The notes under the pieces were generated by a model, which saw only the letters and a list, made by a program, of their open reading frames with translations, was not told the DNA's origin and did no database searches. Shown piece after piece: positions 26,574 to 29,257 of a stretch of DNA of 40,630 bases; position 1 is the stretch's first letter, and each line of letters opens with the position of its first letter. Source of the DNA: a bacterium (GTDB lineage Bacteria; CALINM01); NCBI GenBank assembly GCA_041640455.1, contig JBEQAF010000005.1, forward strand, positions 1 to 40,630, written 5' to 3'. Position numbers and translations under genes: made by a program.

Positions 26574-29257
26574 ATAGCCTTCCCCTTTTCAAACTTTTCA
26601 ATCCTGACAGCGCTTACCTTAAACTCCGGTATCTTCGATTCGGGATCCAGTATCGGATTGGTAAGTTTATTTATAGCTGCTTCGGCAAAATGAAATCTTT
26701 TAAATATTACCCCTTTGGGCACCCTATCGGCATATTTAACTCTCACTATAACATGTCCTCTTCTGCTTGTTATCTTTACCCAGTCTCCATCGGTAAGGTT
26801 CAATGCCTTTGCATCTTCAGGGTTTATTTCTGCAAAGCTCTCGGGACAGTAGTTATTTAGAATCCAGGCTTTTCTTGTCATGGTGCCAGAATGATACTGA
26901 TAATAGTCCCTACCTGTAGTAAGAATAAATGGATACTCTTTATCAGGGCTTTCTGCAGGTTGTCTAAACTGAATGCCCACAAGCAGCCCCTTCCCTCTTG
27001 TTATCTTTCCATCTCTGTGAAGGATAGGTGTGCCCGGATGATCTTCCGTTGGGCATGGCCAGTGAATACCCGTAAGCCCCAGCCTTTTATAGGTAATTCC
27101 TGCATACTGAGGAGTAACCTTTCTAATCTCTTCAAATATCTCTTCGGCACTGGCATACTCCATTGGATAGCCCATTCTTTTTGCTATTTCTGCCACTATC
27201 CACCAGTCCTGCTTAGCCTCGCCGGGAGATTCAACAGCCTTTCTCATAAGCTGAACCCTTCTTTCCGTGTTGGCAACAGTACCGTCTTTCTCTGCAAAAG
27301 AAGCCGCAGGCAGTACCACATGGGCTAACCTGGCTGTTTCTGTAAGGAATATATCTTGAACTACCAGAAACTCTAATTTTTTAAATGCCTCTTCCACATG
27401 CTCCAGATCCGGGTCGGTAATAAGCGGATTCTCACCCATTATGTAGAGAGCTTTTAAACTACCTTCCAGTGCAGCGTGGCTCATCTCCACAACTGTTAGT
27501 CCCACTTTGTCTGATAGCTTAGCGTTCCAGAAGCTTTCAAACTTTTCTTTGTTTGCCTGAACGGTCACATTCTGATATCCAGGATATACATTAGGAAGTC
27601 CGCCCATGTCGCAGGCGCCCTGAACATTGTTCTGTCCCCTTAAGGGGTTTACCCCTGTTCCTTCTTTACCTAAATGTCTGCATATGAGAGCAAGGTTTGA
27701 TATTGCCTTAACATTATCAGTCCCTTTTGAATGCTGGGTAATGCCCATACAGTATATGATTGCTGCTTTTTTTGCGGTGGCATACATCTTTGCCGCCTTT
27801 ATTAGATCTTCCTTCTTTATACCAGTAAGCTCCTCCACATACTCAGGAGTGAACTTTTCCACTGCCTCTTTAACGTTTTCAAAGCCTTCTGTATATTTTT
27901 CTACAAACTCTTTGTTGTAGAGCCCTTCCTTAATAATTATATGAGCCATTCCGTTCAGCCATGCCGAATCGAATCCAGGTTTTGGCTGAAGGAAAAGGGT
28001 TGCCTCCTCTGTAAGGTCTATTTTTCTCGGATCAACCACAATAATTTTTTTGCCTTTGTATCTTGCCGCCTGCCTTAACCTCATTCCGATAACAGGATGG
28101 GTCTCAGTGGTATTGCTTCCTGTAACAAGAATAACATCAGCCTCAGCAAGATCTCCTATAGTATTTGTCATTGCACCTGAACCAAGGGTTGTAGCCAGAC
28201 CGGCTACAGTGGAGGAGTGTCAAAGGCGGGCACAGTGATCTACATTATTGGTACCTATGACTGCCCTTATAAATTTTTGAAAAACGTAGTTGTCTTCGTT
28301 GGTACATCTTGCCGATGTGAGCCCTGCTATGCTATCGGCACCATATTTTGATTTTATCTCAGAAAATTTTGATGCCACTAAATTTAAAGCCTCATCCCAG
28401 CTTGCCTCTTTTAGCTCCCCATTTTTTCTAACAAGCGGCTTGGTAAGCCTTTCCGGGCTATTTACAAAGTCGTAGCCAAATCTACCTTTTACACAGAGAC
28501 TTCCTTTATTAGGTCCTGCATACTCGTTTGTAGTAACTTTGATAATTTTATTTTCAAACACATTCAGCTCAAGGCTACAACCTACACCACAGTATCCGCA
28601 TACGGTGGGGACCCTTTTTATCTCCCAGATCCTTCCTTTTGTTGGGCTAATATTTTCTGTTAGTGCACCTACGGGACATACTGCAAGACATTCTCCACAG
28701 GATATGCATCTATCGGGATTGACTACCTCAACTCTCGCATCAAAACCCTTTCCTTTTAAATCCAGTACATCTCTTCCCACAGCCTCTCTACAAACACGCA
28801 CACATCTACTGCATACCACGCATCTATCCGGGTGATACTTTATAGCTGGTGTCGAATAGCTTCTGTACTCTTTTTTCGGATAGTTTATCCTGAAATTCTG
28901 GGTAGCCACCTCATACTCAAATACCAGATCCTGCAGCTTGCACTCACCTGCCTTATCACAGATAGGACAGTCGAGCGGATGGTTTAGTAGCATAAACCTC
29001 AGAATATCTCTTCTCATCTCCTTTATCTTCGGCGTATCGGTCTTAATAACCATCCCATCGCAGGCTATGGTATTACATGCGGTTACTGGCTTCTCATAGC
29101 CCTCAACCTCGACAACACAGATTCTACAGGAGCCTATCGGGAGAACTTTTTCCAGATAGCAGAGCGTGGGGATATAAATGCCGTTTTCTCTCGCAACCTT
29201 CAGGATGGTCTTTTCGCCTTTAAGCTCAATCTCTTTACCATTAATTATAATAGCCAT
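26570..29257 (-). CDS. fdhA: Selenocysteine-containing Mo/W-bisPGD formate dehydrogenase alpha subunit with NuoG/SfrA-type Fe-S N-terminus (895 aa, Sec346); joins track ORFs 28220..29257 and 26570..28171
   Basis: Both ORFs share one frame. Read-through gives [29 protein letters not shown], the FdhF active-site motif. Catalytic Arg in PLRGQNNVQG, Lys in LCVKGRFG, [2Fe-2S], H-C3, 2x[4Fe-4S] and CGYCGVGC motifs all present; SECIS follows the UGA. Confidence 0.95.
28190..28222 (-). promoter_or_regulatory. Sec codon (UGA 28222-28220) and bacterial SECIS hairpin
   Basis: mRNA UGA-CACUCCUCCAC (11 nt)-UGUAGCC-GGUCU-GGCUACA: perfect 7-bp stem with a GGUCU apex resembling the E. coli fdhF SECIS. Confidence 0.9.

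What the first reader, a model, noticed from the sequence alone, without database searches (positions are those of the whole stretch)
28172..28240. Hidden in-frame UGA recoded as selenocysteine, with SECIS; the ORF caller split the gene
Seen: CTT-TGA-CAC gives [13 protein letters not shown]. Sixteen open codons bridge to the downstream ORF in the same frame. A perfect 7-bp stem (28190-28196 / 28202-28208) with a GGUCU apex starts 11 nt after the UGA. Known: E. coli fdhF has Sec-His at this position and a SelB-binding hairpin at about this spacing. It follows that the organism should encode selA/selB/selC/selD and that a complex I subunit would be a selenoprotein.
Basis: partly seen in the sequence, partly recalled or inferred. 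Interest (0 to 1): 0.75.

Follow-up and report, generated by a model that had tools for sequence, protein, structure and literature searches.

The report
Selenocysteine formate dehydrogenase inside complex I operon
The apparent stop codon is a genuine selenocysteine codon in a formate dehydrogenase gene, which is textbook biology; the less ordinary point is that this enzyme sits where a respiratory complex I operon normally carries its NADH-input genes.

Summary
Confirmed. On the minus strand, TGA at 28222-28220 joins two called ORFs into one 895-residue protein reading [14 protein letters not shown] perfect 7-bp hairpin with a GGUCU loop starts 11 nt downstream.

On its own the hairpin is not beyond chance. 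The comparison with relatives is decisive: 16 of 17 TGA-bearing genes keep at least 6 stacked pairs in this register, against 0 of 60 Cys-bearing genes. The wobble positions covary.

The genome encodes selB, selA (split over two contig ends), selD (itself with an in-frame TGA) and tRNA-Sec(UCA). Only 1 of 36 window genes has an internal TGA. An independent assembly of the reads gives the same letters.

The protein passes the curated formate dehydrogenase alpha model and keeps every catalytic residue of E. coli FdhH. It just fails the NuoG model.

The gene lies in the order nuoABCD, GltD-like flavoprotein, fdhA(Sec), nuoHIJKLMN. No NuoE, NuoF or other NuoG was found in this 95%-complete genome. 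Wood-Ljungdahl genes follow 11 nt after nuoN. Seven other genomes carry fdhA in the nuoG slot: five with this full layout, one without the flavoprotein gene, one with a degenerate active site.

Whether the enzyme physically heads complex I is inferred, at about 60%. The recoding is known biology; the operon context is a new variant, and the scan has noted it before in other genomes.

The parts
26570..29257 (-). fdhA: one 895-residue selenocysteine formate dehydrogenase alpha subunit. It has a NuoG-like N-terminal Fe-S domain and a Mo/W-bisPGD domain. It ends in TGA, overlapping the nuoH start by 4 nt.
   Evidence: Read-through translation. TIGR01591 scores 895.3 bits against cut-off 666.25. 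Pfam domains. 44% identity over 695 aa to E. coli FdhH, with all catalytic residues kept. 4-nt overlap with nuoH.
28220..28222 (-). UGA codon 346, read as selenocysteine (Sec346-His347).
   Evidence: Homologs carry TGA (16 loci) or TGC/TGT (63 loci) at this column. It is the only internal TGA in 36 window genes.
28190..28208 (-). Apical SECIS hairpin: a 7-bp stem with a GGUCU loop, starting 11 nt after UGA.
   Evidence: Covariation score 0.361 against 0.177 in shuffles, reached by 0 of 500. Same loop and offset as E. coli fdhF. The Rfam SECIS_3 match 28167-28225(-) scores 27.9 bits, E 1e-4, below gathering 63.
29264..31189 (-). 641-aa GltD/NfnB-like NAD(P)H flavoprotein with an N-terminal NuoF-type 4Fe-4S domain. 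This is the FdhB-like partner. It takes the place of nuoE/nuoF.
   Evidence: Pfam PF10589 (residues 48-127), PF14691 and PF07992. Best solved relatives are 9bov_A, 9n5u_A (NfnA), 8oh5_C and 5jca_L. The TIGR01959 NuoF model matches only its positions 303-407.
31203..33687 (-). nuoA, nuoB, nuoC and nuoD of operon 2.
   Evidence: NCBIfam hits; NuoD TIGR01962 scores 548.6 bits against cut-off 459.35. Best solved relative is T. thermophilus Nqo4.
19411..26573 (-). nuoH, I, J, K, L, M and N of operon 2.
   Evidence: NCBIfam hits. Gaps between genes run from -4 to 12 nt.
33740..40630 (-). Context: nuoH to nuoN of a separate 11-subunit operon 1. Its nuoABCD lie on contig C44, which overlaps the window end.
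11222..19399 (-). Context: Wood-Ljungdahl carbonyl-branch genes (RACo, CooC-like, AcsD, AcsB, AcsC, AcsE). They start 11 nt after nuoN.
   Evidence: Pfam. Gaps. The same order follows nuoN in G002, G003 and G005.

Best explanation
The TGA at 28222-28220 (minus strand) is a selenocysteine codon. SelB with Sec-tRNA(UCA) reads it, directed by a SECIS hairpin inside the coding sequence: a 7-bp stem with a GGUCU loop that begins 18 nt after UGA, as in E. coli fdhF.

The product is one 895-residue formate dehydrogenase alpha subunit. It carries a [2Fe-2S] cluster, a His-ligated [4Fe-4S] cluster and two ferredoxin-type [4Fe-4S] clusters in a NuoG-like N-terminal domain. These are followed by the FS0 cluster and a Mo/W-bisPGD site with Sec346-His347 and Arg540.

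The confidence number below refers to these two points.

Inferred, at about 60%: together with the upstream GltD-like NAD(P)H flavoprotein, the enzyme replaces NuoEFG as the electron-input head of the complex I encoded by nuoABCD...HIJKLMN. Formate and/or NADPH would then feed the NuoI-NuoB cluster chain and menaquinone with proton pumping. In reverse, proton-motive force could drive CO2 reduction for the Wood-Ljungdahl genes that follow in the same gene string.
For: Recoding:
- The U/C column holds 16 TGA and 63 Cys loci among the 80 fetched. The one remaining locus, L076, has Cys-Leu.
- The hairpin is kept only with TGA: 16 of 17 rows against 0 of 60 have at least 6 stacked pairs.
- A second set from relatives agrees: 7 TGA rows have 5-7 pairs and 8 Cys rows have 0-2. 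One of the TGA rows (L114) is the same genome as L021.
- Covariation at wobble sites: pair 18-30 reads GC 11, CG 2, UA 2, AU 1, GU 1.
- E. coli fdhF has the same loop at the same offset.
- selB scores 353 bits against cut-off 242. selA is in two pieces at contig ends. selD scores 310 bits and has 1 TGA. tRNA-Sec scores 76.6 bits and has anticodon TCA.
- Further TGA-bearing genes in the genome are a Tat-type FDH, SelD and an HdrA-like gene.
- The window has one internal TGA in 36 genes.
- A Logan contig of run X1 is identical over 27700-28700.

Enzyme:
- TIGR01591 scores 895 against 666.
- C220, C223, C227, C255, K257, U346, H347 and R540 align with E. coli C8, C11, C15, C42, K44, U140, H141 and R333. 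The roles of these residues are recalled from the FdhH literature.
- Best solved relatives are HDCR FdhF 7qv7 and, over the full length, R. capsulatus FdsA 6tg9.

Input-head inference:
- The slot lies between nuoD and nuoH, with gaps of 13, 6 and -4 nt.
- No NuoE match was found. The NuoF model matches only positions 303-407, inside the flavoprotein. No other NuoG was found in the 95.4%-complete genome.
- The same embedded layout occurs in G002, G003 (=L021), G005, G036 and L027. L024 lacks the flavoprotein gene. In L026 the pair follows three antiporter-type nuo genes.
- All these FdhA fall in one clade (support 100/100), with embedded forms on its deepest branches.
- All 16 N-terminal cluster ligands are invariant in 8 of 8 embedded genes.
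- The NuoD of this operon is closest to T. thermophilus Nqo4, from a complex with a head. The NuoD of operon 1 is closest to cyanobacterial NdhH, from a headless complex.
Against: The hairpin of this one sequence is not significant. The fold z-score is -0.89. Synonymous resampling gives the same stem in 4% of samples and any stem of 7 bp or more in 25%.

The Rfam SECIS_3 match (27.9 bits) is far below the gathering score of 63, and its lower helix does not pair.

No selenium or expression data exist. The read check used contigs from what is probably the source sample, so it rules out an assembler slip but does not give independent DNA.

Against the input-head inference:
- Close relatives L022 and L023 (Nitrospirota) carry the same flavoprotein plus Sec-FdhA pair with no nuo genes within the flanks held. 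The pair can therefore stand alone.
- The protein fails the NuoG cut-off.
- Gene order alone does not show binding, and the complex prediction could not be run.
- Related genomes share ancestry, so the recurrence counts are not independent.
Confidence: 0.9

Rival explanations
1. The Sec-FDH and its GltD-like partner form a soluble NADP(H)-dependent formate dehydrogenase of the Moorella FdhAB kind. It makes formate for the Wood-Ljungdahl pathway and is merely co-transcribed with complex I genes. It is not a complex I subunit.
For: The same gene pair stands without nuo neighbours in L022 and L023. The protein passes the FDH model and fails the NuoG model. Wood-Ljungdahl genes and a formate-tetrahydrofolate ligase are present. 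M. thermoacetica FdhAB is a soluble Sec enzyme with an Fe-S/NADP-binding beta subunit (passages of PMC5736913).
Against: The pair sits exactly in the nuoEFG slot, between nuoD and nuoH, with a 4-nt overlap into nuoH. Five further genomes carry the same embedded layout, L024 carries fdhA in that slot without the flavoprotein gene, and L026 is linked to nuo genes in a second way. The genome holds no other NuoE, NuoF or NuoG for an operon whose Q-module looks like that of head-bearing complexes. In L076 the same slot holds a copy that has lost the Sec/Cys-His site yet keeps all cluster ligands. That fits a wiring role.
Confidence: 0.33
2. The TGA is a real stop. The locus encodes two separate proteins (345 and 533 aa), or it is a pseudogene.
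For: Table 11 reads it that way, and public gene calls list both halves separately.
Against: The break falls at the active-site Sec/Cys column of a fully conserved enzyme, and both halves stay open. TGA plus hairpin recurs in 16 fetched loci and in 7 loci of relatives (one, L114, is the same genome as L021) across several phyla. Full Sec machinery is present. The downstream ORF would start at an internal Met and would lack the FS0 domain.
Confidence: 0.02
3. The TGA is a sequencing or assembly error for TGC/TGT.
For: Coverage is modest, with a word depth of about 7.9. Another gene of this genome (nrdJ on C91) has a TGA at a conserved Gly position, which may be an error.
Against: An independent assembly of the run gives identical letters, with 0 differences over 1001 bases. 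Same-genus and same-family genomes have TGA at the same codon. The co-adapted hairpin is found only with TGA.
Confidence: 0.01
4. The organism reads TGA as a standard amino acid genome-wide (code 4 or 25).
For: TGA is a rare terminator here, ending 2 of 36 window genes.
Against: Only 1 internal TGA occurs in 36 genes. TGA ends two genes, including fdhA itself. Homologs have Cys, not Trp or Gly, at the column. tRNA-Sec and SelB are present.
Confidence: 0.01

Closest known systems
E. coli formate dehydrogenase H (FdhF) and its fdhF SECIS
   Same: Sec-His at the active site. 44% identity over 695 aa, with the FS0 cysteines, Lys, His and Arg conserved. UGA is followed by CAC, and a GGUCU loop starts 18 nt after UGA.
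   Different: The window protein has an extra 212-residue NuoG-like Fe-S domain at the N-terminus. Its stem is a perfect 7 bp, whereas the E. coli element has a bulged U (recalled). FdhF docks on the Hyc hydrogenase, not on a quinone-reducing complex.
NADP-dependent Sec/W formate dehydrogenase FdhAB of Moorella thermoacetica (Moth_2312-2314)
   Same: A Sec-containing alpha subunit plus a beta subunit with Fe-S and NADP-binding domains. It serves the first step of the Wood-Ljungdahl methyl branch (passages of PMC5736913). Here the partner is GltD/NfnB-like and Wood-Ljungdahl genes are adjacent.
   Different: The Moorella enzyme is soluble and, as I recall, its genes are not in a nuo operon. I did not compare the sequences directly.
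NuoG / Nqo3, the 75-kDa subunit of complex I
   Same: Same operon slot. Same N-terminal cluster motifs. Same overall fold family: TIGR01973 gives E 2e-135, and M. smegmatis NuoG 8e9g_G gives E 4e-76.
   Different: The window protein scores below the NuoG cut-off (453 against 470). It keeps the catalytic Sec-His-Arg site and a second ferredoxin-type cluster. NuoG has lost the active site, and its N7 cluster is off-pathway (passages of PMC10068793 and PMC3144371).
NAD-dependent FdsABG(D) of Rhodobacter capsulatus / Cupriavidus necator (PDB 6TG9)
   Same: The full-length match (residues 3-887) includes the NuoG-like domain. An FDH is wired to a flavoprotein through that domain.
   Different: Fds uses NuoE/NuoF-like FdsG/FdsB with FMN and a Cys active site. 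It is soluble.
GltD-like plus FDH-like modules: StnABC / NfnABC of the Bfu family (8OH5, 9BOV, 9N5U) and Geobacter SfrAB
   Same: The flavoprotein's best solved matches are the GltD-like parts of these chains. The same chains carry an FDH-like domain that matches FdhA residues 95-555.
   Different: As I recall, the FDH-like part of those enzymes has no formate-oxidising site, and they are soluble. Here the active site is intact.
Complex I relatives with other input modules: Fpo with FpoF, the 12-subunit Campylobacter/Helicobacter enzyme with a NuoG-like subunit, and formate hydrogenlyase
   Same: A conserved membrane/Q core takes electrons from a swapped head (passages of PMC3144371). FHL joins a Sec-FDH to a complex I-like membrane arm.
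   Different: None of these joins an active FDH plus an NADPH flavoprotein to a quinone-reducing NuoA-N core. FHL reduces protons, not quinone.

Membership tests
SelB/SECIS-dependent bacterial selenoprotein gene | An in-frame UGA at a column where homologs have Cys. | tested here: met
   16 TGA and 63 Cys loci among the 80 fetched; the remaining locus, L076, has Cys-Leu.
SelB/SECIS-dependent bacterial selenoprotein gene | A stem-loop just downstream of UGA, with a G-containing apical loop at the fdhF-like distance, conserved by covariation. | tested here: met
   7-bp stem with a GGUCU loop 18 nt after UGA. 92.4% of cells pair, and the covariation score is reached by 0 of 500 shuffles. It is present with TGA and absent with Cys. 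The single-sequence energy is not significant.
SelB/SECIS-dependent bacterial selenoprotein gene | selA, selB, selD and tRNA-Sec are in the genome. | tested here: met
   selA is in two pieces, at the ends of contigs C93 and C41.
SelB/SECIS-dependent bacterial selenoprotein gene | Selenium is incorporated in the full-length product. | not testable with these tools
   This needs 75Se labelling or mass spectrometry.
Rfam RF01989 SECIS_3 | The score reaches the gathering threshold. | tested here: not met
   27.9 bits against 63. The apical helix matches, but the lower helix does not pair.
Formate dehydrogenase alpha subunit (NCBIfam TIGR01591) | The score is over the curated cut-off. | tested here: met
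   895.3 bits against 666.25.
Formate dehydrogenase alpha subunit (NCBIfam TIGR01591) | The catalytic Sec/Cys-His, the Arg, the FS0 cysteines and the Lys are present. | tested here: met
   U346, H347, R540, C220, C223, C227, C255 and K257 align with the E. coli FdhH residues.
Formate dehydrogenase alpha subunit (NCBIfam TIGR01591) | A Mo- or W-bisPGD cofactor and formate/CO2 activity. | not testable with these tools
   This needs metal analysis and an enzyme assay.
NuoG (NCBIfam TIGR01973) | The score is over the curated cut-off. | tested here: not met
   453 bits against 470.05; 455.1 bits on the genome search.
NuoG (NCBIfam TIGR01973) | The gene lies between nuoD (or nuoE/F) and nuoH in a nuo operon. 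| tested here: met
   The same is true in seven other genomes.
NuoG (NCBIfam TIGR01973) | The molybdopterin-like domain is degenerate and has no active site. | tested here: not met
   The active site is fully retained. Only the relative L076 has lost it.
NuoG (NCBIfam TIGR01973) | The protein is bound to the Q-module (NuoI/NuoCD) of complex I. | not tested
   Complex prediction could not be started because its queue was full. Otherwise this needs biochemistry.
Canonical 14-subunit complex I | NuoE and NuoF (FMN, NADH site) are present. | tested here: not met
   No NuoE match. The NuoF model matches only its positions 303-407, inside the GltD-like protein. The genome is 95.4% complete.
Canonical 14-subunit complex I | The eleven core subunits NuoA-D and NuoH-N are present. 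| tested here: met
Moorella-type NADP-dependent FdhAB | A beta subunit with Fe-S clusters and a GltD-like NAD(P)H/FAD domain, encoded next to the alpha subunit. | tested here: met
   Pfam and solved relatives. I did not compare directly with the Moorella proteins.

The most novel reading that the evidence does not exclude
The Sec-FDH and the GltD-like flavoprotein are physically the head of a proton-pumping complex I. That enzyme would couple formate and/or NADPH oxidation to menaquinone reduction. Run backwards, it would use proton-motive force and menaquinol to reduce CO2 to formate (and NADP+ to NADPH) for the Wood-Ljungdahl pathway encoded in the same gene string. It would be a membrane-energised CO2 reductase, and a defined electron partner for a 'headless' type of complex I core.
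Probability: 0.35. Interest if true: 0.85.

Novelty: new variant of a known kind. Interest (0 to 1): 0.5.

Why it matters
The recoding matters only as an annotation fix. Public gene calls cut a 99-kDa selenoenzyme into two pieces, so pathway predictions would miss an active formate dehydrogenase.

The context matters more. What donates electrons to complex I-like enzymes that lack NuoEFG is still described as an open question (passages of PMC11238625 and PMC3144371). Here, and in seven other genomes, an apparently active FDH is written into the operon exactly where the NADH module normally is. In six of the eight genomes an NADPH-type flavoprotein gene sits beside it, and in this bacterial family Wood-Ljungdahl genes follow.

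That gives a concrete, testable donor or acceptor for such a complex. It also offers a possible route by which membrane energy could drive CO2 reduction in an anaerobic hot-spring autotroph.

Tried and rejected
- Single-sequence folding gave z = -0.89, which is not significant. Synonymous-codon resampling shows that the peptide itself favours such a stem. I therefore do not rest the case on this one hairpin.
- Rfam gave only a sub-threshold SECIS_3 match.
- The promoter/terminator scan of 9500-29400 was uninformative. It found 60 promoter-like sites against 47.2 +/- 8.4 in shuffles, and 23 terminator-like sites against 14.5 +/- 4.0.
- No RNA holder is listed for this stretch, so there is nothing on expression.
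- I prepared complex prediction with NuoI (alignment A3) and FdhA residues 1-215 (alignment A2). Because of the likeness to solved complex I structures, even a pass would have been weak evidence.
- Ten searches of the held library found no description of an active or Sec-containing FDH inside a nuo operon. One search was a term-format error. The paper id PMC3119410, which I recalled, is not held.
- Subscription journals are outside the library. This includes Zuchan et al. 2021 BBA on Y-junction enzymes, which I saw only as a reference. I did not open supplementary figures of PMC4758237 and PMC3144371. These may show such operon variants.
- The look-up of earlier scan notes near this place gave nothing.
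- I considered the idea that this locus is a living intermediate in the origin of NuoG. I do not claim it, for two reasons. The flavoprotein is GltD-like rather than NuoEF-like. And an earlier scan note making that claim on another genome partly fell on re-check (e1-4540673).
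Full report
OBSERVATION. The gene lies on the minus strand. The sequence reads CGC CTT TGA CAC, with TGA at 28222-28220. The ORF lister gives 28220..29257(-) at 345 aa and 26570..28171(-) at 533 aa, in one frame. Reading TGA as U gives a single 895-residue protein with ...[27 protein letters not shown].... Sixteen codons separate the TGA from the ATG of the downstream ORF. The arms 28208-28202 (UGUAGCC) and 28196-28190 (GGCUACA) form a perfect 7-bp stem around GGUCU, and the stem starts 11 nt after UGA. Both halves stand as separate proteins, from this 40630-base contig, in the public protein collection. 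Gene callers did split the gene.

IS IT MORE THAN CHANCE? Not from this sequence alone. The 61-nt stretch folds no better than its shuffles: z is -0.89, and 33 of 200 shuffles fold as well. I kept the peptide [15 protein letters not shown] and redrew synonymous codons from the window's own codon usage. The same 7-bp stem appeared in 4% of 20000 draws, and some stem of 7 bp or more in 25%. The peptide V-A-G-L-A-T is self-complementary at codon level.

The evidence is comparative. The search for related loci matched 600 stretches, confirmed 545 as relatives and kept the best 80 loci. At the aligned column, 16 loci have TGA and 63 have TGC or TGT followed by His. One locus (L076) has Cys-Leu.

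In the fixed register of the window's hairpin, 16 of 17 TGA rows (window included) have 6 or 7 contiguous pairs; the exception, L022, has 4. None of 60 Cys rows has more than 5, and 31 have none. The loop is GGUCU in 15 of 17 TGA rows.

The stem's free positions are codon wobble sites, and these covary. Pair 18-30 reads GC 11, CG 2, UA 2, AU 1, GU 1. Overall 92.4% of cells pair, and the covariation score is 0.361 against 0.177 in shuffles (reached by 0 of 500). Slid controls pair in 19-60% of cells. Both wobble-wobble pairs form in 17 of 17 TGA rows against 9 of 63 Cys rows. Among rows with the same VAGLA peptide the figures are 15 of 15 against 3 of 34.

A second set, from a search of 60 relatives' genomes, gave 7 further TGA rows with 5-7 pairs and 8 Cys rows with 0-2. 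One of those TGA rows is the same genome as L021. Related sequences are not independent, so the Fisher p-values overstate. On the tree, however, TGA rows fall in several separate places.

E. coli fdhF, fetched from K-12, reads CARV-U-HGPSVAGL. Its GGUCU stands exactly 18 nt after UGA, as here. Rfam's SECIS_3 model matches 28167-28225(-) end to end. It scores only 27.9 bits against a gathering score of 63: the apical helix fits and the lower helix does not.

MACHINERY, CODE, READS. The window is the whole of contig C5 of a 2.06-Mb assembly in 139 contigs, 95.4% complete. The genome holds:
- selB, at 353 bits against a cut-off of 242;
- selA, in two pieces at the ends of contigs C93 and C41;
- selD, at 310 bits, with its own in-frame TGA followed by a hairpin;
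- tRNA-Sec, at 76.6 bits against 47, called by ARAGORN with anticodon TCA.

Three more TGA-bearing genes fit known selenoprotein sites: SelD, a Tat-signal formate dehydrogenase at the end of C125 (IEHQARI-U-HSS), and an HdrA-like protein on C30. In the window, 36 genes end in TAA 23 times, TAG 11 times and TGA twice. Only one gene has an internal TGA. TGA is therefore not reassigned genome-wide. A Logan contig of run X1 covers 27700-28700 with no difference, at depth about 7.9. X1 is a hot-spring metagenome and probably the source sample, so this excludes an assembler slip but is not independent DNA.

WHAT THE PROTEIN IS. It passes the curated formate dehydrogenase alpha model (TIGR01591, 895.3 bits against 666.25). 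It narrowly fails NuoG (TIGR01973, 453 against 470.05). Pfam finds, in order: a 2Fe-2S domain, the NuoG-type His/Cys 4Fe-4S motif, a two-cluster ferredoxin domain, the molybdopterin Fe4S4 domain, the molybdopterin oxidoreductase domain and the dinucleotide-binding domain.

The protein is 44% identical to E. coli FdhH over 695 residues. C220, C223, C227, C255, K257, U346, H347 and R540 align with C8, C11, C15, C42, K44, U140, H141 and R333. The roles of those residues are recalled from the FdhH literature. The best solved relatives are the FdhF of the T. kivui hydrogen-dependent CO2 reductase (7qv7) and, over the full length including the N-terminal domain, R. capsulatus FdsA (6tg9). This is an apparently active Sec formate dehydrogenase, not a degenerate NuoG.

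CONTEXT. The gene order on the minus strand is nuoA, nuoB, nuoC, nuoD, a 641-aa flavoprotein, fdhA, then nuoH, I, J, K, L, M, N. The gaps are 13 nt (nuoD to flavoprotein) and 6 nt (flavoprotein to fdhA). fdhA overlaps nuoH by 4 nt.

The flavoprotein has an N-terminal NuoF-type 4Fe-4S domain, a two-cluster DPD/GltD domain and a GltD/NfnB-like FAD/NAD(P)H domain. Its best solved relatives are the GltD-like parts of Bfu-family chains (9bov_A, 8oh5_C), NfnA (9n5u_A) and NfnI (5jca_L).

The genome search found no NuoE. The NuoF model matched only at its C-terminal positions, inside this flavoprotein. The only NuoG-like hits were this gene and the periplasmic FDH.

Upstream, 52 nt away, lies the end of a second nuo operon. 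Contig C44 overlaps the window's end and shows that this operon runs nuoABCD straight into nuoH. It is therefore an 11-subunit, headless operon. Its NuoD is closest to cyanobacterial NdhH, whereas the NuoD next to fdhA is closest to T. thermophilus Nqo4.

[quoted passage not shown] In all, 31 co-directional genes from 40627 to 10214 have gaps of 52 nt or less. Formate-tetrahydrofolate ligase is present elsewhere in the genome. No DsrA scores over its cut-off.

RELATIVES. The layout flavoprotein, Sec-fdhA, nuoH, nuoI recurs in G002 (same genus, 83% identity), G003 (the genome of L021, 78%), G005 (same family, 74%), G036 (another family, 60%) and L027 (a Syntrophobacterales MAG, 63%). L024 has nuoABCD, Sec-fdhA, nuoH with no flavoprotein gene between. 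L076 has the full layout, but its copy reads Cys-Leu instead of Sec/Cys-His. In L026 the pair follows three antiporter-type (NuoL/M/N-like) genes. In L022 and L023 (Nitrospirota) the pair stands without nuo genes in the flanks held.

In the family of the window, 3 of 5 other genomes have the gene. The two without it are 84% and 91% complete. The Wood-Ljungdahl genes follow nuoN in G002, G003 and G005, but not in the 3.5 kb held of G036.

I built a tree of 21 rows rooted on Bacillota forms. All of these FdhA fall in one clade of 13 rows (support 100/100). Eight are embedded, one is appended, two are free-standing and two lie on contigs too short to tell. Embedded forms sit on the deepest branches. 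The AU test rejects a clade made of the embedded rows alone (p about 1e-6), because the others nest among them. The 16 Cys/His ligands of the four N-terminal clusters are invariant in 8 of 8 embedded genes, including the degenerate L076.

HOW IT MOST LIKELY WORKS. Shown by sequence and comparison: UGA346 is decoded as Sec through an fdhF-type SECIS, and the product has everything an FDH alpha subunit needs.

Inferred from domain content: electrons pass between the W/Mo-bisPGD site, FS0, the two ferredoxin-type clusters and the NuoG-like clusters. The flavoprotein plugs in through its NuoF-type cluster and exchanges electrons with NAD(P)H.

Inferred from gene order, from the absence of NuoEFG and from recurrence (about 60%): this pair is the head of the complex I encoded around it. 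The His-ligated cluster would then hand electrons to NuoI, NuoB and menaquinone, with proton pumping.

The direction in vivo is open. Formate or NADPH oxidation would conserve energy. The reverse would let proton-motive force pay for CO2 reduction feeding the adjacent Wood-Ljungdahl genes. The main rival (about one third) is a soluble Moorella-type NADPH-dependent FdhAB that is only co-transcribed with complex I.

COMPARISON WITH WHAT IS KNOWN. Sec in FdhA with a SECIS just downstream is textbook. The known complex I variants in the passages I read are the 14-subunit form, the 12-subunit form (with FpoF or a NuoG-like subunit) and the 11-subunit form (PMC3144371). The electron donor of the headless forms is still called an open question (PMC11238625). 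NuoG is described as an FDH homolog that has lost its site; purified M. smegmatis complex I showed no formate:NAD+ activity (PMC10068793).

Ten full-text searches found no description of an active or Sec-containing FDH inside a nuo operon. The library lacks most subscription journals, and I opened no supplements. For each paper I saw search listings and the passages returned by 'find'; for PMC4758237 I also read section 5.

Earlier notes of this scan report the same architecture in other genomes (e1-2409075, e1-1091957, e1-1091958). One related claim, of a living evolutionary intermediate, partly fell on re-check (e1-4540673). I reached my reading before seeing these notes, and I do not claim the intermediate.

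NOT DONE. The complex prediction (NuoI with FdhA residues 1-215) never left the queue. No RNA run is listed, so there is no evidence on expression.

VERDICT. The recoding is ordinary and mainly an annotation fix. The operon context is a new variant of known kinds, it is uncharacterised, and it is worth a biochemical test.

Noticed in passing
window 33740-40630 (-) and G000:C44:1-2858: A second, 11-subunit nuo operon (nuoABCD running straight into nuoHIJKLMN) ends 52 nt upstream of the FDH-bearing operon. Contig C44 overlaps the window end. Its NuoD is closest to cyanobacterial NdhH, not to Nqo4.
   Followed up: partly
window 11222-19399 (-): Wood-Ljungdahl carbonyl-branch genes (RACo, CooC-like, AcsD, AcsB, AcsC, AcsE) start 11 nt after nuoN. 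The same order follows nuoN in G002, G003 and G005.
   Followed up: partly
window 26570-26573 (-): fdhA ends in TGA, overlapping the nuoH start (ATGA). The same codon thus means Sec at position 346 and stop at 896 in one gene.
   Followed up: no
G000:C125:1-900 (-): A second selenocysteine formate dehydrogenase with a twin-arginine signal (IEHQARI-U-HSSTVAAL). It is cut by the contig end.
   Followed up: partly
G000:C43:13663-14556 (-): selD itself carries an in-frame TGA (AAG-U-AAKMGP), followed by a hairpin.
   Followed up: partly
G000:C30:11959-15072 (-) = L141: A 1038-aa HdrA-like protein (HdrA2 model, 984 bits, below its cut-off of 1100). It has an in-frame TGA at FPTNECSI-U-ILSPK and an 8-bp hairpin 14 nt downstream. 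It is a likely further selenoprotein.
   Followed up: partly
G000:C91:1649-3307 (-) = L142: A B12-dependent ribonucleotide reductase (NrdJ) with an in-frame TGA where I recall a Gly in the family motif (KQG-x-KRRGA). It may be a base error, a pseudogene or something else. A short run of X also appears near the C-terminus.
   Followed up: no
L076:6001-8553: The same nuo slot and flavoprotein neighbour, but the FDH-like protein reads Cys-Leu in place of Sec/Cys-His and sits on a long branch. All N-terminal cluster ligands are kept. This looks like a wiring-only, NuoG-like descendant.
   Followed up: partly
L098:5952-9336; L026:14-8667: Other layouts of the same pair. L098 (Rokubacteria) carries a single fused flavoprotein-FdhA(Sec) ORF. 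In L026 the pair is placed after three antiporter-type nuo genes and is followed by an acetyl-CoA synthetase.
   Followed up: partly
window 5131-10162: Two AMP-forming acetyl-CoA synthetase genes on opposite strands flank an IclR-type regulator.
   Followed up: no
G000:C93:2-658 and G000:C41:16755-17561: selA is split across two contig ends. The model positions 3-223 and 182-454 overlap, so this is an assembly break rather than a broken gene.
   Followed up: no
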